Part shown: in pieces, positions 509 to 9,748 of the stretch
Layout of the letters: each line of letters starts with the position of its first letter
How positions within the stretch are numbered: the first letter of the stretch is position 1
IMG/VR virus record: IMGVR_UViG_641522623_000003
Coordinates: 1-11,078 of that record
Direction: 5' to 3' (one strand)
Length of the DNA stretch: 11,078 nt
Origin: a virus
Lineage: Duplodnaviria > Heunggongvirae > Uroviricota > Caudoviricetes
Made by a program: the position numbers and the translations under genes
The notes under the pieces: model-generated
What the model was told of the DNA's origin: nothing
Databases searched by the model: none
What the model saw: only the letters and a program-made list of their open reading frames with translations

Positions 509-567
509 TATCACTTAAAGGTATTAAAAACAACTTTTTGTCTTTTTACCTTCCCGTTTCGCTCAAG

Positions 568-582
568 TTAGTATAAAAAAGC
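568..582 (-). other. attR core (15-bp lambda-type overlap/core sequence)
   Basis: TTAGTATAAAAAAGC is the reverse complement of GCTTTTTTATACTAA. It is flanked on the ybhB side by CGCTCAAG (B' arm) and on the prophage side by CTGAAC... (P arm). Confidence 0.9.
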
Positions 583-728
583 TGAACCAGAAACAGAAAA
601 AATCATTAATATCAATCCCTTACAATACATTTGGCTTAAAAAATAGACTGTATAATACTGCAAAACACATCATATCCAGTCACTATGAATCAACTACTTA
701 GATAGTATTAGTGACCTGTAACAGAGCA
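583..728 (-). promoter_or_regulatory. attR P-arm (Int arm-type, IHF and Xis binding region), lambda-like but divergent
   Basis: Contains an arm-type Int site CAGTCACTAT (677..686) and TTAGTGACCTG (~709..719). The segment 677..728 matches my recollection of lambda P arm closely, whereas 583..676 differs at many positions. Confidence 0.7.
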
Positions 729-768
729 TTAGCGCAAGGTGATTTTTGTCTTCTTGCGCTAATTTTTT
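729..768 (+). terminator. tI / sib-type hairpin (lambda int retroregulation terminator)
   Basis: Perfect 10-bp stem TTAGCGCAAG (729..738) / CTTGCGCTAA (753..762) with a 14-nt loop, followed by TTTTTT (763..768). Sequence GCGCAAGGTGATTTTTGTCTTCTTGCGC is as I recall for lambda tI/sib. Confidence 0.7.
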
Positions 769-832
769 GTCGTAAAATCGGTAACGGCTGGAAATCATTC
801 AATACTCGCACTATCGAACATCCATCAGCCAG

Positions 833-865
833 CCGTGGCACGTTCTTGCATACGACGTGCCACGG
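833..865 (+). terminator. Second stem-loop in b-region remnant
   Basis: Perfect 10-bp stem CCGTGGCACG (833..842) / CGTGCCACGG (856..865) with a 13-nt loop, followed by TTTCATTTAT. Function unknown. Confidence 0.3.
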
Positions 866-1238
866 TTTCATTTATCTCCGCCCGGAAACTTCTTATACAA
901 AGTCGATACGCCAACATCATAGATGATCGCCACCTTCTGGCGAGAAACTCCTGATGCAATTAGTCGTCCAGCCTGCGCTCATTGCTCCGGCGTGAGAGTA
1001 AGACAGTAAACTGTAGAAAAATCTCATTAAACTTAATATAATAATAAGTTACAAAATTATCTTTACTGAATAATAGATATATGAACATTAGTGAACTTAA
1101 AAACTGTATACACTATGAAGTAATAGGTTATAAACGCCCTTTCTCCTGGCGAAAAGCAATTGTTCGCGCAATAAAACACAGAAGATTACGTTATTTATTT
1201 TGGTGGCGCATAGCAAAATATCTGGTAATGACTCCAAC

Positions 1239-1616
1239 TTATTGATAGTGTTTTATGTTCAGATAATGCCCGATGATTTTGTCATGCAGCTCCACCGATT
1301 TTGAGAACGACAGCGACTTCCGTCCCAGCCGTGCCAGGTGCTGCCTCAGATTCAGGTTATGCCGCTCAATGCGCTGAGTGTAACGCTTGCTGATAACGTG
1401 CAGCTTTCCCTTCAGGCGGGATTCATACAGCGGCCAGCCATCCGTCATCCATATCACCACGTCAAAGGGTGACAGCAGGCTCATAAGACGCCCCAGCGTC
1501 GCCATAGTGCGTTCACCGAATACGTGCGCAACAACCGTCTTCCGGAGCCTGTCATACGCGTAAAACAGCCAGCGCTGGCGCGATTTAGCCCCGACGTATC
1601 CCCACTGTTCGTCCAT
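1239..1616 (-). CDS. insB: IS1 insB reading frame (C-terminal catalytic part of InsAB' transposase)
   Basis: 125-aa track [25 protein letters not shown]…HYLNIKHYQ. The insB frame extends upstream to the A6C site. The nominal insB ATG (minus strand 1742..1740) is followed by TAG at codon 11 (1712..1710), where copy B has TGG. Confidence 0.85.
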
Positions 1617-1660
1617 TTCCGCGCAGACGATGACGTCACTGCCCGGCTGTATGCGCGAGG

Positions 1661-1936
1661 TTACCGACTGCGGCCTGAGTTTTTTAAGTGACGTAAAATC
1701 GTGTTGAGGCTAACGCCCATAATGCGTGCAGTTGCCCGGCATCCAACGCCATTCATGGCCATATCAATGATTTTCTGGTGCGTACCGGGTTGAGAAGCGG
1801 TGTAAGTGAACTGCAGTTGCCATGTTTTACGGCAGTGAGAGCAGAGATAGCGCTGATGTCCGGCGGTGCTTTTGCCGTTACGCACCACCCCGTCAGTAGC
1901 TGAACAGGAGGGACAGCTGATAGAAACAGAAGCCAC
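1661..1936 (-). CDS. insA: IS1 InsA (transposition repressor / N-terminal part of InsAB' transposase)
   Basis: 91-aa [42 protein letters not shown]…, the canonical IS1 InsA with its zinc-finger Cys motif. Confidence 0.9.
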
Positions 1937-2024
1937 TGGAGCACCTCAAAAACACCATCATACACTAAATCAGTAAGTTGGCAGCATCACCCGTTTTTCG
2001 TTATGTATAAATAAGGAGCACACC

Positions 2025-2189
2025 ATGCAATATGCCATTGCAGGGTGGCCTGTTGCTGGCTGCCCTTCCGAATCTTTACTTGAACGAATCACCCGTAAAT
2101 TACGTGACGGATGGAAACGCCTTATCGACATACTTAATCAGCCAGGAGTCCCGAAAAATGGATCAAACAATTATGGCTATCCAGACTAA
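2025..2189 (+). CDS. cIII: Lambda cIII (FtsH/HflB protease inhibitor, stabilises CII)
   Basis: ATG 2025, stop TAA 2187..2189. Translation [54 protein letters not shown] (54 aa). Upstream TTATGTATAAATAAGGAGCACACC includes the RBS. The gene is below the ORF-track length cutoff. Confidence 0.85.
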   Translation: MQYAIAGWPVAGCPSESLLERITRKLRDGWKRLIDILNQPGVPKNGSNNYGYPD

Positions 2190-2301
2190 ATTCACTATCG
2201 CCACTTTTATTGGCGATGAAAAGATGTTTCGTGAGGCCGTCGACGCTTATAAAAAATGGATATTAATACAGAAACTGAGATCAAGCAAAAGCATTCACTA
2301 A
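2158..2301 (+). CDS. kil: Lambda Kil (host cell-division inhibitor)
   Basis: 47-aa [50 protein letters not shown]. It overlaps the cIII 3' end by 32 nt as in lambda. The longer track ORF 2032..2301 is an upstream extension of this frame. Confidence 0.8.
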
Positions 2302-2376
2302 CCCCCTTTCCTGTTTTCCTAATCAGCCTGGCATTTCGCGGGCGATATTTTCACAGCCATTTTCAGGAGTTCAGCC

Positions 2377-2673
2377 ATGAACGCTTATTACATTCAGGAT
2401 CGTCTTGAGGCTCAGAGCTGGGCACGTCACTACCAGCAGATCGCCCGTGAAGAGAAAGAGGCAGAACTGGCAGACGACATGGAAAAAGGCCTGCCCCAGC
2501 ACCTGTTTGAATCGCTATGCATCGATCATTTGCAACGCCACGGGGCCAGCAAAAAAGCCATTACCCGTGCGTTTGATGACGATGTTGAGTTTCAGGAGCG
2601 CATGGCAGAACACATCCGGTACATGGTTGAAACCATTGCTCACCACCAGATTGATATTGATTCAGAGGTATAA
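2377..2673 (+). CDS. gam: Lambda Gam, short form (RecBCD inhibitor)
   Basis: 98-aa [63 protein letters not shown]…, recognised as lambda GamS. The upstream long-form start (ATG 2256) is out of frame here. Confidence 0.9.
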
Positions 2674-2678
2674 AACGG

Positions 2679-3464
2679 ATGAGTACAGCACTCGCAACGC
2701 TGGCTGGGAAGCTGGCTGAACGTGTCGGCATGGATTCTGTCGACCCACAGGAACTGATCACAACTCTTCGCCAGACGGCATTTAAATGTGATGCCAGCGA
2801 TGCGCAGTTCATCGCATTGTTGATCGTCGCCAACCAGTACGGCCTTAATCCGTGGACGAAAGAAATCTACGCCTTCCCTGATAAGCAGAACGGCATCGTT
2901 CCGGTGGTGGGCGTTGATGGCTGGTCCCGCATCATCAATGAAAACCAGCAGTTTGATGGCATGGACTTTGAGCAGGACAATGAATCCTGTACATGCCGGA
3001 TTTACCGCAAGGACCGTAATCATCCGATCTGCGTTACCGAATGGATGGATGAATGCCGCCGCGAACCATTCAAAACTCGCGAAGGCAGAGAAATCACGGG
3101 GCCGTGGCAGTCGCATCCCAAACGGATGTTACGGCATAAAGCTATGATTCAGTGTGCCCGTCTCGCCTTCGGATTTGCTGGTATCTATGACAAGGATGAA
3201 GCCGAGCGCATTGTCGAAAATACCGCATACACTGCAGAACGTCAGCCGGAACGCGACATCACTCCGGTTAACGATGAAACCATGCAGGAGATTAACACTC
3301 TGCTGATCGCCCTGGATAAAACATGGGATGACGACTTATTGCCGCTCTGTTCCCAGATATTTCGCCGCGACATTCGCGCATCGTCAGAACTGACACAGGC
3401 CGAAGCAGTGAAAGCTCTTGGATTCCTGAAACAGAAAGCCACTGAGCAGAAGGTGGCAGCATGA
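2679..3464 (+). CDS. bet: Lambda Bet (Red-beta single-strand annealing protein)
   Basis: 261-aa [38 protein letters not shown]…, full length. Start lies 6 nt after the gam stop. Confidence 0.95.
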
Positions 3465-4141
3465 CACCGGACATTATCCTGCAGCGTACCGGGATCGACG
3501 TGAGAGCTGTCGAACAGGGGGATGATGCATGGCACAAATTACGGCTCGGCGTCATCACCGCTTCAGAAGTTCACAACGTGATAGCAAAGCCCCGCTCAGG
3601 AAAGAAGTGGCCTGACATGAAAATGTCCTACTTCCACACCCTGCTGGCTGAGGTTTGCACCGGTGTGGCTCCGGAAGTTAATGCTAAGGCGCTGGCCTGG
3701 GGAAAACAGTACGAGAACGACGCCAGAACCCTGTTTGAATTCACTTCCGGCGTGAATGTTACTGAATCCCCGATCATCTATCGCGACGAAAATATGCGCA
3801 CTGCCTGCTCTCCCGATGGTTTATGCAGTGACGGCAACGGCCTTGAGCTGAAATGCCCGTTTACCTCCCGGGATTTCATGAAGTTCCGGCTCGGTGGTTT
3901 CGAGGCCATAAAGTCGGCTTACATGGCCCAGGTGCAGTACAGCATGTGGGTGACACGTAAAGATGCCTGGTACTTTGCCAACTATGACCCGCGTATGAAG
4001 CGTGAAGGACTGCATTATGTCGTGGTTGAGCGGGATGAAAAGTACATGGCGAGTTTTGACGAGATGGTGCCGGAGTTCATCGAAAAAATGGACGAGGCAC
4101 TGGCTGAAATTGGTTTTGTATTTGGGGAGCAATGGCGATGA
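3461..4141 (+). CDS. exo: Lambda Exo (Red-alpha 5'-3' dsDNA exonuclease)
   Basis: 226-aa [41 protein letters not shown]…, full length. ATGA overlap with the bet stop. Confidence 0.95.
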
Positions 4142-4320
4142 CGCATCCTCACGATAATATCCGGGTAGGCGCAATCACTTTCGTCTACTCCGTTACAAAG
4201 CGAGGCTGGGTATTTCCCGGCCTTTCTGTTATCCGAAATCCACTGAAAGCACAGCGGCTGGCTGAGGAGATAAATAATAAACGAGGGGCTGTATGCACAA
4301 AGCATCTCCTGTTGAGTTAA
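4138..4320 (+). CDS. Lambda exo-xis region protein, orf60a-like
   Basis: 60-aa [63 protein letters not shown], starting in an ATGA overlap with the exo stop. An alternative ATG at 4132 would give 62 aa. Position and length match lambda orf60a. Confidence 0.7.
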
Positions 4321-4484
4321 GAACGAGTATCGAGATGGCACATAGCCTTGCTCAAATTGGAATCAGGTTTGTGCCAATACCAGTAGAAACAGACGAAGAA
4401 TTTCATACGTTAGCCACATCCCTTTCACAAAAACTGGAAATGATGGTGGCGAAAGCAGAAGCAGATGAGAGAGACCAGGTATGA
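4293..4484 (+). CDS. Lambda exo-xis region protein, orf63-like
   Basis: 63-aa [66 protein letters not shown]. It overlaps orf60a by 28 nt, the same arrangement as lambda orf60a/orf63. Confidence 0.65.
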   Translation: MHKASPVELRTSIEMAHSLAQIGIRFVPIPVETDEEFHTLATSLSQKLEMMVAKAEADERDQV

Positions 4485-4494
4485 CAACCACTGA

Positions 4495-4776
4495 ATGCAT
4501 TTTTCTGGCAGCGGGCTTCATATTCTGTGTGCTTATGCTTGCCGACATGGGGCTTGTTCAGTGACACCTCAGCAGGAAAACGCCCTTCGCAGCATTGCCC
4601 GTCAGGCTAATTCTGAAATCAAAAAAGCCAGACAGCAGTTTCCGGATAAAAACGTCGATGACATTTGCCGTAGCGTACTGAAGAAGCACCGCGAAACGGT
4701 AACGCTGATGGGATTCACACCGACTCATTTAAGCCTAGCAATCGGCATGTTAAACGGCGTTTTTAAGGAACGGTGA
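4495..4776 (+). CDS. Hypothetical protein in exo-xis region (occupies the lambda orf61 position but differs in length)
   Basis: 93-aa ORF; start uncertain, with an in-frame GTG at 4561 as an alternative. An ATG at 4465 in the same frame is followed by TGA at 4492..4494. A 27-codon hydrophobic ORF (4481..4564, MTTTECIFLAAGFIFCVLMLADMGLVQ) overlaps in another frame. Confidence 0.45.
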   Translation: MHFSGSGLHILCAYACRHGACSVTPQQENALRSIARQANSEIKKARQQFPDKNVDDICRSVLKKHRETVTLMGFTPTHLSLAIGMLNGVFKER

Positions 4777-4798
4777 ACATGAAAAGCAAAATCATCAG

Positions 4799-4820
4799 GG
4801 AGCTACAGGCTCCTTTTTTA
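4799..4820 (+). terminator. Weak stem-loop plus U-tract
   Basis: GGAGC (4799..4803) / GCTCC (4809..4813) 5-bp stem followed by TTTTTTA. Lies between the hypothetical ORF and the TraR-like ORF. Confidence 0.25.
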
Positions 4821-4874
4821 TTATTCGCATTCACCCTCAAGCGTATTAACCAACAATTCAGGGATTAATGAAAG

Positions 4875-5096
4875 ATGGCAGACATCATTGATTCAGCATC
4901 AGAAATTGAAGAATTACAGCGCAACACAGCAATAAAAATGCGCCGCCTGAACCACCAGGCTATATCTGCCACTCATTGTTGTGAGTGTGGCGATCCGATA
5001 GATGAACGAAGACGCCTGGCCGTTCAGGGTTGTCGGACTTGTGCAAGTTGCCAGGAGGATCTGGAACTTATCAGTAAACAGAGAGGTTCGAAGTGA
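4875..5096 (+). CDS. TraR/DksA-family C4 zinc-finger protein (lambda Orf73-like)
   Basis: 73-aa ORF with CxxC…(17)…CxxC (CCECGDPIDERRRLAVQGCRTCASC). Size and position between orf61 and ea22 fit the lambda TraR homologue. Confidence 0.8.
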   Translation: MADIIDSASEIEELQRNTAIKMRRLNHQAISATHCCECGDPIDERRRLAVQGCRTCASCQEDLELISKQRGSK

Positions 5097-5506
5097 GCGT
5101 AATTCACTCTCAGGCACTGCGTGAAGCGGCAGAGCAGGCAATGCATGACAACTGGGGATTTGACGCGGACCTTTTCCATGAGCTGGTAACACCATCGATT
5201 GTGCTGACACTGCTGGATGAACGGGAAAGAAACCAGCAGTACATCAAACGCCGCGACCAGGAGAACGAGGATATTGCGCTAACGGTGAGGAAACTGCGTG
5301 TTGAGCTGGAGACAGCAAAAATCAAAACTCAACGAGCAGCGTGAGTAGAAGGTGTTATCTCGGATGGAAGTAAGCGTATTGCTGAACTGGAGGCCTGGGT
5401 TGAATACACAAGAGCTGCATACGTAAGAGCAAAAGACAAGGGAGATTTGATCAGAGTTATTACCCGACAACCAACGGGATTTTACGCTTACGTACCATGT
5501 AATTAG
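5093..5506 (+). pseudogene. ea22-like gene, interrupted by in-frame TGA and shortened
   Basis: GTG start 5093 overlaps the upstream stop. 83 codons (MSVIHSQALREAAEQAMHDNWGFDADLF…) run to TGA 5342..5344. The same frame then stays open for 53 more codons (VEGVISDGSKRIAELEAWVEYTRAAYVRAKDKGDL…) to TAG 5504..5506, with no in-frame start. Confidence 0.45.
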
Positions 5507-5590
5507 GAATCCTTGAAGTGGCAGCCTAACTGCGGATACACTGAAATGGCGATTTGGTAACATGTTTCGCACAAGGGTAGTGACTCCAAC

Positions 5591-6094
5591 TTACTGATAG
5601 TGTTTTATGTTCAGATAATGCCCGATGACCTTGTCATGCAGCTCCACCGATTTTGAGAACGACAGCGACTTCCGTCCCAGCCTTGCCAGATGTTGTCTCA
5701 GATTCAGATTATGTCGCTCAATGCGCTGAGTGTAACGCTTGCTGATAACGTGCAGCTTTCCCTTCAGGCGTGATTCATACAGCGGCCAGCCATCCGTCAT
5801 CCATACCACGACCTCAAAGGCCGACAGCAGGCTCAGAAGACGCTCCAGTGTGGCCAGAGTGCGTTCACCGAAAACGTGCGCCACAACTGTCCTCCGTATC
5901 CTGTCATACGCGTAAAACAGCCAGCGCTGACGTGATTTAGCACCGACGTAGCCCCACTGTTCGTCCATTTCCGCGCAGACGATGACGTCACTGCCCGGCT
6001 GTATGCGCGAGGTTACCGACTGCGGCCTGAGTTTTTTAAATGGCGGAAAATCGTGTTGAGGCCAACGCCCATAATGCGGGCGGTTGCCCGGCAT
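5591..6094 (-). CDS. insB: IS1 InsB (full 167-aa insB frame)
   Basis: 167-aa [19 protein letters not shown]…[10 protein letters not shown]6C frameshift motif present (plus-strand GAGTTTTTTAAA, ~6029..6040). Confidence 0.9.
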
Positions 6095-6288
6095 CCAACG
6101 CCATTCATGGCCATATCAATGATTTTCTGGTGCGTACCGGGTTGAGAAGCGGTGTAAGTGAACTGCAGTTGCCATGTTTTACGGCAGTGAGAGCAGAGAT
6201 AGCGCTGATGTCCGGCAGTGCTTTTGCCGTTACGCACCACCCCGTCAGTAGCTGAACAGGAGGGACAGCTGATAGAAACAGAAGCCAC
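6013..6288 (-). CDS. insA: IS1 InsA
   Basis: 91-aa ORF, 2 aa different from copy A (…[19 protein letters not shown]). Confidence 0.9.
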
Positions 6289-6400
6289 TGGAGCACCTCA
6301 AAAACACCATCATACACTAAATCAGTAAGTTGGCAGCATCACCCGCTTAAAGATAATCAGCCATGATTAAACGCTTTGTAAAAAGTAAAAGGAAATTACA

Positions 6401-7015
6401 ATGAAAAAATCAATACTAATTTTAGGGCTTACGTTAATTGTCTCATCTCAAATACCATCGGCAATGGCAAAAAATGAATCAAGACTTTGGGTTGTTGTTG
6501 ATCGAACGGAAAGACATACCTGCCCTTCAAGTAAATGTGGAGTGGCTGGGAAACTATTTTTCAGGGAAGGCGTAGATTTTCTAGAAAAAAAAGGTGAATG
6601 GGTTCGTATAACTGAGCCATATTCAGCCTCATGTGTGGGAGGGGAAAGCGAATATATTAAAGAAGGTAATAAATCCTGCACAAGAAAAAACGGAATCGTC
6701 AATGGCAAGTTTTCAGAATGGGTTAAACTTAGTGATCTTAGCAGTGAAAGGCCATCAGATCCTGCTGAAAATGCGAGCGGAGATGATACTTTAATCAAAG
6801 GATCTGATGACTACCGTATATACAAAAAAGAGTTTTCTTCGGCAGCTAGGAAGTTAATAAACGAAGGGGTCTGCACGGAAAGCGACTTTAAGGAAATCGG
6901 AGGGTGGATGGCATCAAGCAATAAGGGGAAAAACATCTATTTCACATATTGCGGAGGAATGACGTTGTCGAACAGAATATACCTAGACGTTAAAAGTGGA
7001 AAGACTTTTAGATAA
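6401..7015 (+). CDS. Secreted (Sec signal peptide) Cys-containing hypothetical protein, accessory cargo
   Basis: 204-aa ORF with RBS AAGGA 8 nt upstream. N-terminus MKKSILILGLTLIVSSQIPSAMA↓KNE is a typical signal peptide with AxA cleavage site and no lipobox. Mature part has 6 Cys. The gene is visibly AT-rich versus the flanking lambda genes. No family recognised by eye. Confidence 0.7.
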   Translation: MKKSILILGLTLIVSSQIPSAMAKNESRLWVVVDRTERHTCPSSKCGVAGKLFFREGVDFLEKKGEWVRITEPYSASCVGGESEYIKEGNKSCTRKNGIVNGKFSEWVKLSDLSSERPSDPAENASGDDTLIKGSDDYRIYKKEFSSAARKLINEGVCTESDFKEIGGWMASSNKGKNIYFTYCGGMTLSNRIYLDVKSGKTFR

Positions 7016-7086
7016 TATGATATTACCAATGACAGTATTAATTTAATGCCTCCATAGAATTATCTCTAGGAAGTATGTATAAGAAA

Positions 7087-7120
7087 AGCCCGCACAATGA
7101 GCTGCTGCGGGCTTTGTGTT
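7087..7120 (+). terminator. Rho-independent terminator candidate downstream of secreted-protein gene
   Basis: Stem AGCCCGCA (7087..7094) / TGCGGGCT (7106..7113) with an 11-nt loop, followed by TTGTGTT. Confidence 0.5.
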
Positions 7121-7308
7121 ATTCGCCATATTTTATGAAGCAAATACGACACTATAGATAATTAAGCGTTGCTGGTTGTCGATTCCTCACTCACTCCTGT
7201 TGATGGCTCTCTTCTTGTATGTGCCATTGAAGGGTAATATCGAGTAAAAAGATACCGGAAGTATCCGCGCCGCCATGATTGTCTTTCTCCTAATGCAGGA
7301 AAAGCAGA

Positions 7309-7428
7309 ATGGCTAAATCATCAGCAGAGCGCAAAGTCGATCAGAGAGCCAAGCAAGCATCATCCGGTATGCGTAAGCTGGAGCTTGTACTTGATGCTCA
7401 GGAAATTGAAATGCTGGATCGTAACTGA
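7309..7428 (+). CDS. Small hypothetical ORF (39 aa) whose frame continues past its TGA stop
   Basis: ATG 7309 with AGGAAA 10 nt upstream. Translation MAKSSAERKVDQRAKQASSGMRKLELVLDAQEIEMLDRN, stop TGA 7426..7428. The same frame continues 72 codons to TAA 7645..7647 (ATRRFRHAPYEFGEYIALLSRQDDARVRWRIKSISRKRCGKCGERVPVNSCPCNGDSQCWVTKGWHETKLMI) with no ATG. Confidence 0.35.
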   Translation: MAKSSAERKVDQRAKQASSGMRKLELVLDAQEIEMLDRN

Positions 7429-7675
7429 GCCACGCGCCGCTTCAGGCATGCGCCTTACGAGTTTGGTGAGTACATCGCGTTACTGAGCCGCCAGGATGAT
7501 GCACGTGTGCGCTGGCGTATAAAATCGATCAGCAGAAAACGTTGCGGTAAGTGCGGCGAGAGAGTTCCTGTTAATTCATGCCCGTGTAATGGTGACTCAC
7601 AATGCTGGGTGACCAAAGGCTGGCACGAAACAAAATTAATGATATAAATCTCTGTGACATGTCACGGAGGCGGCA

Positions 7676-8104
7676 ATGAAATTAGACCAGCAATATCTAA
7701 AAGATCTACTTATCGCATTCGAAAAAACTCATGGCCCTGACACGATGCTTAGTGAACTAGAGGATAATGGCTTTAATAGATATGACCAAAATTTTATTTT
7801 CCATATGCGATTATTATGCGACTACGAATTAATAGTCAGGGTTGATGGAAAACCTGGGTTCGGTCATATAATGTCCAACGAGTTAGGGGAAGGTGTTGGA
7901 TATAGTTGGATCGAAGTACCACTGAGGTTGACAGCAAGAGGGCATGATTTTATTGCTGACTTGCGTCAAAAGGAGGTCTGGCAAACTATAAAAACAAACT
8001 TTAAGGATGAGGGAATTAGTACACTAATAAGTGTTTCAAAATCACTAGCAAAAGGCTTTGCAAGGAAAAAGATAAAAGATATTACAGGAATAGATATTGA
8101 ATAA
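7676..8104 (+). CDS. DUF2513-like hypothetical protein (putative winged-helix), accessory cargo at the lambda ea8.5 position
   Basis: 142-aa ORF with strong RBS GGAGG (7666..7670) 5 nt before the ATG. AT-rich codon usage. The motif …RLTARGHDFIADLRQKEVWQTIK… and a basic C-terminal tail resemble my memory of DUF2513 proteins (…LTWxGHEFLDAIRD…VW…). Confidence 0.65.
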   Translation: MKLDQQYLKDLLIAFEKTHGPDTMLSELEDNGFNRYDQNFIFHMRLLCDYELIVRVDGKPGFGHIMSNELGEGVGYSWIEVPLRLTARGHDFIADLRQKEVWQTIKTNFKDEGISTLISVSKSLAKGFARKKIKDITGIDIE

Positions 8105-8186
8105 TTCTTAGCATCAGCAACTACTGCCTTTGGTGGAAATTATATCTGAACTCGCTACGGCGAGTTTTGTTTTATGGAGATGATAA

Positions 8187-8354
8187 ATGCACTTCCGAGT
8201 CACAGGTGAATGGAATGGAGAACCATTCAACAGAGTTATCGAAGCAGAGAACATCAATGACTGCTATGACCACTGGATGATATGGGCGCAGATAGCACAT
8301 GCAGACATAACCAATATTCGAATTGAAGAACTGAAAGAACACCAAGCCGCCTGA
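8187..8354 (+). CDS. Small lambda-like ORF upstream of xis (orf55-like)
   Basis: 55-aa ORF MHFRVTGEWNGEPFNRVIEAENINDCYDHWMIWAQIAHADITNIRIEELKEHQAA with RBS GGAGA 7 nt upstream. Length and position match the small ORF lambda carries between ea8.5 and xis. Confidence 0.55.
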   Translation: MHFRVTGEWNGEPFNRVIEAENINDCYDHWMIWAQIAHADITNIRIEELKEHQAA

Positions 8355-8366
8355 TGGCGGTTTTTT
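8346..8366 (+). terminator. Short stem-loop plus U-tract between orf55-like and xis
   Basis: CCGCC (8347..8351) / GGCGG (8356..8360) with loop TGAT, followed by TTTTTT (8361..8366). It overlaps the orf55 stop codon. Confidence 0.4.
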
Positions 8367-8393
8367 CTTGCGTGTAATTGCGGAGACTTTGCG

Positions 8394-8612
8394 ATGTACT
8401 TGACACTTCAGGAGTGGAACGCTCGCCAGCGACGCCCAAGAAGCCTTGAAACAGTTCGTCGATGGGTGCGCGAATGCAGGATATTCCCTCCTCCGGTTAA
8501 GGATGGAAGAGAATATCTGTTCCACGAATCAGCGGTAAAGGTTGACTTAAATCGACCAGTAACAGGTAGCCTTTTGAAGAGGATCAGAAATGGGAAGAAG
8601 GCGAAGTCATGA
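8394..8612 (+). CDS. xis: Lambda excisionase Xis
   Basis: 72-aa ORF MYLTLQEWNARQRRPRSLETVRRWVRECRIFPPPVKDGREYLFHESAVKVDLNRPVTGSLLKRIRNGKKAKS. Its 3' end overlaps int by 23 nt as in lambda. Confidence 0.92.
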   Translation: MYLTLQEWNARQRRPRSLETVRRWVRECRIFPPPVKDGREYLFHESAVKVDLNRPVTGSLLKRIRNGKKAKS

Positions 8613-9660
8613 GCGCCGGGATTTACCCCCTAACCTTTATATAAGAAACAATGGATATTACTGCTACAGGGACCCAAGGACGGGTAAAGAGTTTGGATTA
8701 GGCCGAGACAGGCGAATCGCAATCACTGAAGCTATACAGGCCAACATTGAGTTATTTTCAGGACACAAACACAAGCCTCTGACAGCGAGAATCAACAGTG
8801 ATAATTCCGTTACGTTACATTCATGGCTTGATCGCTACGAAAAAATCCTGGCCAGCAGAGGAATCAAGCAGAAGACACTCATAAATTACATGAGCAAAAT
8901 TAAAGCAATAAGGAGGGGTCTGCCTGATGCTCCACTTGAAGACATCACCACAAAAGAAATTGCGGCAATGCTCAATGGATACATAGACGAGGGAAAGGCG
9001 GCATCAGCCAAGTTAATCAGATCAACACTGAGCGATGCATTCCGAGAGGCTATGGCTGAAGGCCATATAACAACAAACCCGGTCGCAGCCACTCGCGCTG
9101 CAAAATCAGAGGTAAGGAGATCAAGACTTACGGCTGACGAATACCTGAAAATTTATCAAGCAGCAGAATCATCACCATGTTGGCTTAGACTTGCAATGGA
9201 ACTGGCTGTTGTTACCGGGCAGCGAGTTGGTGATTTATGCGAAATGAAGTGGTCTGATATCGTAGATGGATATCTTTATGTCGAGCAAAGCAAAACAGGC
9301 GTAAAAATTGCCATCCCAACAACATTGCATGTTGATGCTCTCGGGATATCAATGAAGGAAACACTTGATAAATGCAAAAAGATTCTTGGCGGAGAAACCA
9401 TAATTGCATCTACTCGTCGTGAACCGCTTTCATCCGGCACAGTATCAAGGTATTTTATGCGCGCACGAAAAGCATCAGGTCTCTCCTTCGAAGGGGATCC
9501 GCCAACCTTTCACGAGTTGCGCAGTTTGTCTGCAAGACTCTATGAGAAGCAGATAAGCGATAAATTTGCTCAACATCTTCTCGGGCATAAGTCGGACACC
9601 ATGGCATCACAGTATCGTGATGACAGAGGCAGGGAGTGGGACAAAATTGAAATCAAATAA
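8590..9660 (+). CDS. int: Lambda integrase Int (tyrosine recombinase)
   Basis: 356-aa ORF MGRRRSHERRDLPPNLYIRNNGYYCYRDPRTGKEFGLGRDRR… ending …HLLGHKSDTMASQYRDDRGREWDKIEIK. It carries the tyrosine-recombinase residues (…HELRSLSARLY…, catalytic Tyr in SQY) and is transcribed toward attL/ybhC. Confidence 0.95.
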   Translation: MGRRRSHERRDLPPNLYIRNNGYYCYRDPRTGKEFGLGRDRRIAITEAIQANIELFSGHKHKPLTARINSDNSVTLHSWLDRYEKILASRGIKQKTLINYMSKIKAIRRGLPDAPLEDITTKEIAAMLNGYIDEGKAASAKLIRSTLSDAFREAMAEGHITTNPVAATRAAKSEVRRSRLTADEYLKIYQAAESSPCWLRLAMELAVVTGQRVGDLCEMKWSDIVDGYLYVEQSKTGVKIAIPTTLHVDALGISMKETLDKCKKILGGETIIASTRREPLSSGTVSRYFMRARKASGLSFEGDPPTFHELRSLSARLYEKQISDKFAQHLLGHKSDTMASQYRDDRGREWDKIEIK

Positions 9661-9733
9661 TGATTTTATTTTGACTGATAGTGACCTGTTCGTTGCAACA
9701 AATTGATAAGCAATGCTTTTTTATAATGCCAAC
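9661..9733 (-). promoter_or_regulatory. attL P'-arm (Int arm-type sites P'1-P'3, IHF H' site)
   Basis: Reverse complement reads …TTGCTTATCAATTTGTTGCAACGAACAGGTCACTATCAGTCAAAATAAAATCA…, matching the lambda P' arm as I recall it. Arm-type repeats AGGTCACTATCAGTCAAAAT correspond to ~9670..9689. Confidence 0.8.
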
Positions 9734-9748
9734 TTAGTATAAAAAAGC
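9734..9748 (-). other. attL core (15-bp lambda-type overlap/core sequence)
   Basis: TTAGTATAAAAAAGC, identical to 568..582. Followed by AGGCTTCA, the reverse complement of the attB B arm TGAAGCCT. Confidence 0.9.

What the first reader, a model, noticed from the sequence alone, without database searches (positions are those of the whole stretch)
7676..8104. DUF2513-like putative winged-helix protein at the ea8.5 position
This 142-aa ORF has a strong RBS and ends 6 nt from where lambda ea8.5 would end under my coordinate mapping, but is longer and unrelated in sequence. The central RLTARGHDFIADLRQKEVWQTIK motif and basic C-terminal tail resemble DUF2513 as I remember it, a family of unknown function frequent in prophages.
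Basis: partly seen in the sequence, partly recalled or inferred. Interest (0 to 1): 0.45.

Follow-up and report, generated by a model that had tools for sequence, protein, structure and literature searches.

The report
DUF2513 winged-helix cargo gene, prophage remnant
This is a real, intact gene for a small winged-helix protein of the uncharacterised DUF2513 family, carried as swappable cargo where phage lambda has ea8.5; RefSeq already annotates it that way, so it is ordinary, though its function is untested.

Summary
The observation and the family call both hold. The ORF at 7676-8104 (142 aa, GGAGG 5 nt before the ATG) scores above Pfam's DUF2513 cut-off over the whole profile. It matches PHROG 585 and is named "DUF2513 domain-containing protein" in RefSeq. 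It lies in a 2.7-kb non-lambda block that replaces ea8.5 and the end of ea22, inside a decayed lambda-like prophage at att-lambda. Its stop is 6 nt from the extrapolated ea8.5 stop.

The N-domain is acidic, with invariant H43/R84/T86. In rare relatives it is fused to TIR, DUF4062 or AbiTi-like modules. My best reading, which is inferred and not shown, is a self-expressed binding or sensor protein acting in phage-host conflict. A classical transcription factor is the main rival.

Upstream lies a pseudogenised epsilon15-gp49-like regulator gene. A conserved palindrome, GTGACATGTCAC, sits at that gene's 3' end.

The parts
7676..8104 (+). CDS of the 142-aa DUF2513-family protein, stop codon included
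   Evidence: ORF list. Pfam PF10711 above the gathering score. PHROG 585. RefSeq WP_000762730.1. Purifying selection.
7676..7969 (+). Residues 1-98, the winged-helix N-domain: H1 5-16, H2 25-30, H3 38-49, wing strands 53-55 and 83-85. This is the part retained in the TIR, DUF4062 and AbiTi-like fusion proteins.
7847..7915 (+). Residues 58-80, the long beta-hairpin inserted in the wing. It is the most variable segment and contains indels.
   Evidence: Strands 64-69 and 72-78. Column entropy is 2.39 bits here, against 0.65 for residues 81-98.
7925..7951 (+). Residues 84-92, the RLTARGHDF family signature. R84 and T86 are invariant, as is H43; L85, G89, H90 and F92 are nearly invariant across 35 sequences down to 25% identity.
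   Evidence: Alignments A1 and A2. It aligns with the 'LTxxG' wing/helix junction of a MarR protein in a marginal profile hit (E=0.055).
7970..8086 (+). Residues 99-137, two C-terminal helices (99-108 and 114-137) forming a basic tail. I infer that this is an oligomerisation or output module.
   Evidence: helices, pLDDT 90-94. (pI 9.5). The tail is replaced by effector-like domains in some fusions.
7666..7670 (+). Shine-Dalgarno GGAGG, 5 nt before the ATG
   Evidence: Sequence.
7620..7648 (+). Promoter-like element: CTGGCA, 17-nt spacer, TGaTATAAA (extended -10). It overlaps the last codons of the upstream pseudogene.
   Evidence: Read from the sequence; the consensus scan missed it because it requires T at position 6 of the -10 hexamer. 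A near-consensus or extended -10 is present upstream of 17 of 35 distinct homologue loci, against 3.8% of control ORFs and 6.4% of shuffles. Consensus evidence only.
7654..7665 (.). Perfect 12-bp palindrome GTGACATGTCAC, directly abutting the RBS. It belongs to the 3' end of the upstream gene family, not to the DUF2513 gene.
   Evidence: Within about 12 nt of the 3' end of the upstream gene family in 59 of 62 loci, including phages TL-2011b, epsilon15 and ZF40 that lack DUF2513.
7309..7647 (+). Pseudogene of a 112-aa PHROG 536 'transcriptional regulator' (similar to epsilon15 gp49), with an in-frame TGA at 7426-7428 (codon 40)
   Evidence: Translation. PHROG 536 at E=1e-47 for the intact homologue. 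RefSeq notes 'internal stop'. The same stop is present in 21 of 62 loci.
8148..8177 (+). Terminator-like hairpin plus T-run, 44 nt after the stop codon. It lies inside the resumed lambda homology.
   Evidence: the homology boundary at 8139 is.
5392..8138 (+). Non-lambda block replacing lambda 29,333-30,094 (ea8.5 plus the 3' part of ea22). It contains IS1 (5576-6343), a 204-aa signal-peptide protein gene, the regulator pseudogene and the DUF2513 gene.
   Evidence: blastn against lambda, phage Chlobot and strain NCTC9040. Annotations. GC content drops to 0.37-0.41 over the DUF2513 gene.

Best explanation
SHOWN. This is an intact, selected gene for a DUF2513-family protein. The protein has a winged-helix core with a long hypervariable wing hairpin and a basic C-terminal helical tail. 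The gene is mobile single-gene cargo. In this decayed lambda-like prophage it occupies the exo-xis accessory region in place of ea8.5. In other temperate phages, close relatives sit in the nin region or just before the small terminase gene. More distant relatives sit in the P2 S/V slot and in P2- and P4-like variable regions. No partner gene is conserved across phyla.

INFERRED (about 40% for this mechanism). The gene is transcribed from its own promoter-like element, so it would also be expressed in the lysogen. I infer, by analogy with PadR-type proteins, that the protein self-associates through the C-terminal helices. It would then act as a stand-alone binding or sensor module in phage-phage or phage-host conflict, such as superinfection control. 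In this model the invariant residues H43, R84, T86 and H90 contact a target common to the whole family: a nucleic-acid feature, a nucleotide, or a conserved host or phage component. The variable hairpin would tune specificity. Under this reading the protein is not an operator-specific repressor. The family assignment and the cargo status are held at >=95%; only the mechanism is uncertain.
For: Family and fold.
Real gene under selection.
Cargo status: non-lambda block of low GC. The gene sits at the same position in the viable phage Chlobot, and between the lysis and terminase genes in a Klebsiella phage. It occupies at least three slots in viral contigs. More distant relatives lie in the P2-like S/V slot, after P2 gpA next to HD-CE/AAA_13 genes, and in a Vibrio P4-like island next to AbiEii or AAA_15/21 genes.
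No conserved neighbour in 65 genomes from many phyla.
Own promoter-like -10 in 49% of distinct loci, against 4-6% in controls.
Not operator-like: the N-domain is acidic family-wide (mean pI 5.1; H3 net charge -1.6). H3 and the RLTxxGHxF motif stay nearly constant across sequences as low as 25% identical, while the hairpin varies.
Conflict link: the same N-domain is fused to CAP12/Pycsar-type TIR, ThsB-like TIR, a DUF4062/PDC-S60 module, or an AbiTi-like module in rare relatives.
Against: No experiment exists for any family member; one literature hit only names the family. The protein has no PADLOC hit. Its nearest neighbours in 60-odd species are heterogeneous and not visibly enriched in defence genes. 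The free-standing form has no recognisable effector. Fusions were seen in only about 7 of the 150 best family representatives, and their own function is untested; the PDC entries are candidate systems only. The promoter is a consensus match that overlaps coding sequence. I could not inspect the model's coordinates, so I do not know whether the invariant residues cluster. A winged helix with MarR/PadR-like architecture is by default a DNA-binding regulator.
Confidence: 0.4

Rival explanations
1. It is a classical small dimeric winged-helix transcription factor of the PadR/MarR type. It binds a specific operator in phage or host DNA and biases the lysis-lysogeny decision or host physiology, as proposed for other exo-xis region proteins.
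Against: No MarR or PadR Pfam model matches, even at E<=10. The winged-helix domain is acidic, and the presumed recognition helix is hydrophobic with negative net charge. That helix is nearly invariant across very distant members, which is unusual if each reads a different operator. There is no conserved adjacent or divergent target gene. The one conserved palindrome nearby belongs to the upstream gene family and occurs without DUF2513.
Confidence: 0.3
2. It is an anti-defence decoy or sponge. Under this reading the free-standing module copies the sensor domain of DUF2513-TIR or DUF2513-AbiTi-type host proteins. It either poisons their assembly or sequesters their trigger or signal, protecting the phage.
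For: The N-domain is shared with TIR, DUF4062 and AbiTi-like fusion proteins, and most signature residues are retained in them. The protein is small, self-contained and phage-borne, with an invariant polar set of residues.
Against: The free-standing form is by far the commonest (about 90% of the top 150 representatives). It is also widespread in bacterial chromosomes outside recognisable phages. Only 2 of 50,697 deposited phage genomes carry a close relative, and both are temperate. No co-occurrence data were obtained.
Confidence: 0.1
3. It is a functionless passenger, an ORF surviving by chance in a dead prophage.
For: The prophage is a 9-kb remnant with two IS1 copies and an inactivated upstream gene. 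Sequence variation within the E. coli lineage is too low to measure selection there (dN/dS 0.25-0.68 on a handful of changes).
Against: The ORF is intact in all 21 fetched loci where the upstream gene carries the stop. It is 94% identical in the viable phage Chlobot. Full length is conserved across 113 homologues. pN is far below a saturated pS. The family has 1,482 representatives at 50% identity.
Confidence: 0.03

Closest known systems
Pfam PF10711 (DUF2513) / PHROG 585
   Same: Full-length match above the curated cut-off, the same RLTxxGHxF signature, the same 130-150-aa single-domain architecture, and prophage association.
   Different: Nothing: it is a typical member. The family has no known function.
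Pfam PF09639 (YjcQ, Bacillus subtilis prophage-type winged-helix family)
   Same: Some close relatives of this protein score on both the DUF2513 and YjcQ models (P0126 at 26.9 bits; P0261 carries both precomputed domains). This suggests a sister winged-helix family.
   Different: The window protein has no YjcQ hit at E<=10. YjcQ also has no known function, and a literature search gave nothing usable.
Short PadR (LmrR-type) and MarR family transcription regulators
   Different: No sequence-family membership. The protein has an acidic N-domain, a long extra hairpin in the wing, and no adjacent regulated gene. Foldseek TM-scores are only 0.35-0.5.
Lambda Ea8.5 (hybrid homeodomain/zinc-finger protein, PDB 2M7A)
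   Same: Same slot: the last variable gene of the exo-xis region before orf55-xis-int, ending within 6 nt of the same point. Ea8.5 is likewise of unknown function and is proposed to bind DNA or protein (PMC8614690).
   Different: Unrelated in sequence and length, and a different fold class. This is a positional analogue, not a homologue.
Candidate single-gene TIR defence proteins (PADLOC PDC-S35, PDC-S66, PDC-S60; ThsB-like) and lactococcal AbiTi
   Same: Rare relatives carry the DUF2513 N-domain fused to these effector-type modules.
   Different: The window protein has no such module and no PADLOC hit. The PADLOC profiles match only the C-terminal parts of the fusions, and the PDC entries are untested candidates.

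Membership tests
DUF2513 (PF10711) | Score at or above Pfam's gathering threshold on the family HMM | tested here: met
   42.9 bits against 29.6, E=6.8e-11.
DUF2513 (PF10711) | Match covers the whole domain model | tested here: met
   Profile positions 1-100 of 100 on residues 2-115. Precomputed PF10711 on nearly all homologues.
DUF2513 (PF10711) | Conserved signature, F-H in helix 3 and RLTxxGHxF after the wing. I derived this signature here from the family alignment; it is not a published definition. | tested here: met
   F42, H43, R84, L85, T86, G89, H90 and F92 are all present.
Winged helix-turn-helix fold | Three-helix bundle followed by a beta-hairpin wing | tested here: met
MarR / PadR transcription regulator families | Match to the family HMMs | tested here: not met
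   No MarR or PadR Pfam model is reported at E<=10. The only signal is a marginal family-profile hit to a MarR chain, E=0.055.
MarR / PadR transcription regulator families | Sequence-specific DNA binding as a dimer | not testable with these tools
   Needs EMSA, ChIP and SEC-MALS. The charge pattern argues weakly against it.
Lambda Ea8.5 family | Sequence similarity to Ea8.5 | tested here: not met
   BLASTP E=13.
Known or candidate anti-phage defence systems (PADLOC-DB 2.0) | Match to any defence-protein model | tested here: not met
   0 families at E<=10. Only distant fusion relatives match, and only through their C-terminal TIR or AbiTi-like parts.
Moron (autonomously expressed prophage cargo gene) | Own promoter and terminator, composition unlike the flanks, presence or absence between related phages | tested here: inconclusive
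   Low GC. Absent from lambda but present in Chlobot. Promoter-like -10 enriched upstream and a terminator-like hairpin downstream. No transcript data are available.

The most novel reading that the evidence does not exclude
The free-standing DUF2513 protein may be a prophage-expressed immunity factor, or the decoy of one. The same winged-helix module that other bacteria fuse to TIR NADase-type, DUF4062 or AbiTi-like effectors would be a trigger-sensing domain. The ea8.5 slot of lambda-like phages, together with the nin, pre-terminase and P2 S/V slots, would then be a defence or counter-defence cargo site carrying a previously unrecognised single-gene system.
Probability: 0.2. Interest if true: 0.65.

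Novelty: already known. Interest (0 to 1): 0.27.

Why it matters
As a finding it adds little. The gene is already annotated as DUF2513 in RefSeq, and the 1.3-kb segment that carries it is covered at 80% or more in 141 of 5,426 complete E. coli genomes.

It matters in two modest ways. [quoted passage not shown]

Second, it gives a widespread domain of unknown function (1,482 clusters at 50% identity, many phyla) a testable lead. The supporting features are stand-alone cargo status, an own promoter-like element, an invariant polar signature, a variable hairpin, and rare fusions to TIR and Abi-type modules. If a phage-challenge phenotype were found, it would assign a role to the whole family.

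Tried and rejected
- NCBIfam and PADLOC scans of the protein gave no hits.
- PDB sequence searches found nothing with the single protein and only marginal MarR hits with the family profile.
- Foldseek against PDB and against viral BFVD models gave nothing better than E about 1e-3, all generic or uncharacterised winged-helix proteins. The AFDB library was not available.
- Literature searches: 'DUF2513' gave one irrelevant marker-gene paper. 'YjcQ' gave nothing usable. No supplementary files are held for the P2/P4 hotspot paper.
- I looked for a conserved partner gene. The upstream PHROG 536 gene accompanies the closest subfamily, but it is present in 54 phage records against 2 for DUF2513. It is absent from more distant loci and is a pseudogene here, so it is not an obligate partner.
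- The genes downstream of marine homologues (a 100-aa membrane protein and a 106-aa acidic protein) are unrelated to each other.
- No neighbour cluster recurs in 65 genomes, and nearest-neighbour Pfam content is heterogeneous.
- I first took the palindrome GTGACATGTCAC for an operator of the DUF2513 gene. I rejected that because it follows the upstream gene even in phages without DUF2513.
- A broad-alignment scan of genome contigs failed for lack of a conserved stretch, so the closer alignment was used.
- A homodimer prediction was not attempted, because only window or database sequences can be submitted and model coordinates are not returned.

Full report
**The observation.** The ORF at 7676-8104 (+) is present exactly as described: ATG start, 142 aa. 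GGAGG lies at 7666-7670, five bases before the start codon. blastn of the window against lambda shows two homologous blocks of about 97.5-98% identity. The first is window 1992-5391, running from cIII into ea22. The second is window 8139-9748, covering orf55, xis, int and the att core. Between them the window is not lambda. The replaced lambda segment is 29,333-30,094, that is ea8.5 (29,374-29,655) and the 3' part of ea22. Extrapolating from the right-hand junction puts the ea8.5 stop at window 8098, 6 nt from the ORF's end at 8104. BLASTP against Ea8.5 finds no similarity (E=13).

**Is it a gene?** A search of 5.8 billion proteins returned 113 homologues. Almost all are 134-151 aa with the same N-terminus, and all are from Enterobacterales. 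Against 12 homologues of 53-76% amino-acid identity, synonymous sites are saturated (pS 0.75-0.98). Non-synonymous differences are only 0.14-0.33 per site. This indicates long-term purifying selection. No Rfam family overlaps the ORF; the only Rfam hit in the window is the lambda cIII thermoregulator at 2012-2070.

**The host element.** The window is a 9.2-kb remnant of a lambda-like prophage at att-lambda. It lies between ybhB (1-477) and ybhC (9795 onwards), with att-derived sequence at 564-777 and a boundary at 9748. One IS1 (1224-1992) stands where everything from the b region to cIII should be. A second IS1 (5576-6343) splits an ea22-like gene. The same non-lambda block, 98% identical and without the IS1, is present at the same position in the isolated phage Chlobot. 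The 1.3-kb segment around the gene is covered at 80% or more in 141 of 5,426 complete E. coli genomes. GC content falls to 0.37-0.41 over the gene, against 0.45-0.50 in the flanks.

**Genomic contexts elsewhere.** In 80 viral contigs the gene occupies several slots, always co-oriented with the surrounding operon. These are the exo-xis region next to at least three different integration modules, the nin region before NinB and Q, and the position immediately before the small terminase gene. In a Klebsiella phage it sits between the lysis and terminase genes. More distant relatives (24-32% identity) occur in other settings:
- in a P2-like prophage between tail gene S and baseplate gene V;
- after P2 gpA, next to HD-CE and AAA_13 genes;
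- in Vibrio parahaemolyticus P4-like islands beside either AbiEii/DUF6088 or AAA_15/21 genes;
- in a Plesiomonas array of unrelated small genes near a reverse transcriptase;
- in a three-gene integrase islet.

A scan of one genome per species found relatives in Gamma-, Alpha- and Betaproteobacteria, Planctomycetota, Flavobacteriales, Gemmatimonadota, Bacillota, Binatia, Verrucomicrobiota and Acidobacteriota. No neighbour cluster recurs next to the gene beyond a handful of closely related Enterobacterales prophages. The Pfam content of the nearest neighbours is heterogeneous, ranging from housekeeping to phage genes. The gene therefore works, or at least travels, alone.

**The upstream gene and the palindrome.** In the subfamily closest to the window protein, the gene is usually preceded by a 112-124-aa gene of PHROG 536 ('transcriptional regulator'). 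That gene is 70% identical to epsilon15 gp49, which GenBank annotates as similar to N15 gp46. Its N-terminus weakly resembles the ribbon-helix-helix protein YbfE (E=0.006, below cut-off), and its C-terminus is cysteine-rich. In the window this gene (7309-7647) carries an in-frame TGA at codon 40. The same stop is present in 21 of 62 loci, and the DUF2513 ORF is intact in all of them. Between the two genes lies a perfect palindrome, GTGACATGTCAC (7654-7665), which abuts the Shine-Dalgarno sequence. I first read it as an operator of the DUF2513 gene. That reading fails: the palindrome follows or overlaps the stop codon of the PHROG 536 gene in 59 of 62 loci. These include TL-2011b, epsilon15 and ZF40, which have no DUF2513 gene. 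The palindrome therefore belongs to the upstream gene's 3' end, and DUF2513 is cargo placed directly after it. PHROG 536 occurs in 54 deposited phage genomes, against 2 for DUF2513, so it is not an obligate partner.

**Expression.** The last codons of the pseudogene form CTGGCA, a 17-nt spacer, and TGaTATAAA (7620-7648), which is an extended -10-type promoter match. A start from it would fall inside the palindrome. Across 35 distinct upstream sequences of homologues, 17 carry a near-consensus or extended -10 between -55 and -11. The figure is 3.8% for 286 control ORFs from the same loci and 6.4% for shuffles. The 17 fall into at least four unrelated sequence types. A terminator-like hairpin follows 44 nt after the stop codon. 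This is the anatomy of a moron, but it rests on consensus matches only.

**Clues to mechanism.** A profile search of 1.84 billion cluster representatives finds 1,482 family members. About 90% of the best 150 are free-standing proteins of 120-150 aa. Across 35 members down to 25% identity, H43, R84 and T86 are invariant. Y7, L12, F42, G63, L85, G89, H90 and F92 are nearly invariant. Within the close set, the wing hairpin (58-80) is the most variable segment, and the strand-motif-helix region (81-98) is the least variable (2.39 against 0.65 bits). The N-domain is acidic throughout the family (mean pI 5.1). The helix that would be the recognition helix has a mean net charge of -1.6, and the tail is basic (mean pI 8.3). 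Ten of the best 150 representatives exceed 180 aa, and seven carry a recognisable extra C-terminal module. Their C-terminal domains are a CAP12/Pycsar-type TIR (PADLOC PDC-S35), a ThsB-like TIR (PDC-S66, E=2e-57), a DUF4062/PDC-S60 module, and in three proteins an almost complete AbiTi-like module. Several fusions keep only residues 1 to about 95-105 of the family profile. This shows that the N-domain is an independent module and that the tail occupies the place taken by effector-type domains.

**Interpretation.** A conserved N-domain joined to interchangeable effector-type domains, a hypervariable surface element, residence in cargo slots of temperate elements, and apparent autonomous expression together point to a role in phage-host or phage-phage conflict. 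In that model the winged helix is a binding or sensing module for a target common to the family. I rate this about 0.4. The main rival, at about 0.3, is the default reading of such a fold: a dimeric operator-binding regulator that modulates lysis-lysogeny or host transcription, as proposed for other exo-xis proteins (PMC8614690, PMC3824215). The charge pattern, the invariance of helix 3 and the lack of any linked target gene count against this rival, but none of them is decisive. A decoy or sponge role is possible (about 0.1). A functionless passenger is unlikely (about 0.03). Nothing here was tested experimentally, and PADLOC does not recognise the protein.

**Verdict.** The finding is correct and ordinary: a known, already annotated family member in a known variable region. 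The function of the family remains open. The fusions, the promoter-like element and the invariant signature give concrete experiments to run.

Noticed in passing
window 7309-7647 (stop codon at 7426-7428): The gene upstream of the finding is a PHROG 536 'transcriptional regulator' similar to epsilon15 gp49. An in-frame TGA at codon 40 has made it a pseudogene. The same stop is present in 21 of 62 related loci, and the DUF2513 ORF stays intact in all of them. Phage Chlobot's annotation splits the intact gene into a 'UmuD-like protein' and a 46-aa 'transcriptional regulator'.
   Followed up: yes
window 7654-7665; also L095 2835-2846, L096 2835-2846, L097 2788-2799: The perfect 12-bp palindrome GTGACATGTCAC lies at or overlapping the stop codon of PHROG 536 genes in 59 of 62 loci from E. 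coli, Salmonella, Pectobacterium and other hosts, including phages without DUF2513. In epsilon15 it lies about 25 nt from the right end of the deposited genome. Its role is unknown; it could be a binding site of the gene's own product, or a packaging- or junction-related site.
   Followed up: partly
L047 396-407, L076 2027-2038, L056 446-457, L064 297-308: Further exact copies of the same palindrome lie inside two unrelated conserved phage coding regions, about 4-5.7 kb upstream of the DUF2513 gene. This is more than chance predicts for a 12-mer in under 1 Mb. They may be secondary sites or coincidence.
   Followed up: no
window 564-9748: The whole element is a 9.2-kb lambda-like prophage remnant at att-lambda between ybhB and ybhC. 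IS1 at 1224-1992 replaces everything from the b region to cIII. IS1 at 5576-6343 interrupts an ea22-like gene. gam, bet, exo, orf60a/63/61, an orf73-like TraR/DksA-family gene, xis and int remain as open reading frames.
   Followed up: partly
window 6401-7015: This is a 204-aa protein with an N-terminal signal peptide and several cysteines. It matches PHROG 8310 (unknown function, E=2e-136), has no Pfam hit, and has low GC (0.36-0.41). It is another cargo gene in the same non-lambda block and is conserved in phage Chlobot.
   Followed up: partly
window 8148-8177 and 8344-8373: Two terminator-like hairpins with T-runs bracket the lambda orf55 homologue (8187-8354), inside sequence shared with lambda. 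The region holds six terminator-like sites, against 1.3 expected from shuffles.
   Followed up: no
proteins P0140, P0242, P0210, P0127, P0217, P0209 (metagenomic relatives): The DUF2513 N-domain occurs fused to a CAP12/Pycsar-type TIR, a ThsB-like TIR, a DUF4062/PDC-S60 module, or an AbiTi-like C-terminal module ending in a hydrophobic segment. The one context retrieved (P0242) was a 2.3-kb contig and was uninformative.
   Followed up: partly
L068 176-613: In one viral contig a different 145-aa gene sits between the PHROG 536 gene with its palindrome and the DUF2513 gene. L060 shows a similar arrangement. The site after the palindrome can therefore hold more than one cargo gene.
   Followed up: no
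L003, L075, L078, L080 (about 40-70 nt upstream of the DUF2513 start): In the loci where DUF2513 lies before the terminase genes, a different conserved upstream element appears. It is an inverted repeat CAGGCAttcactgaGTGCCTG followed by TGtGATAAT, which looks like a promoter with an operator.
   Followed up: no
window 2012-2070: An Rfam Lambda_thermo (cIII thermoregulator) match at 88.5 bits lies immediately after the IS1 junction. The cIII leader therefore survives in the remnant.
   Followed up: no
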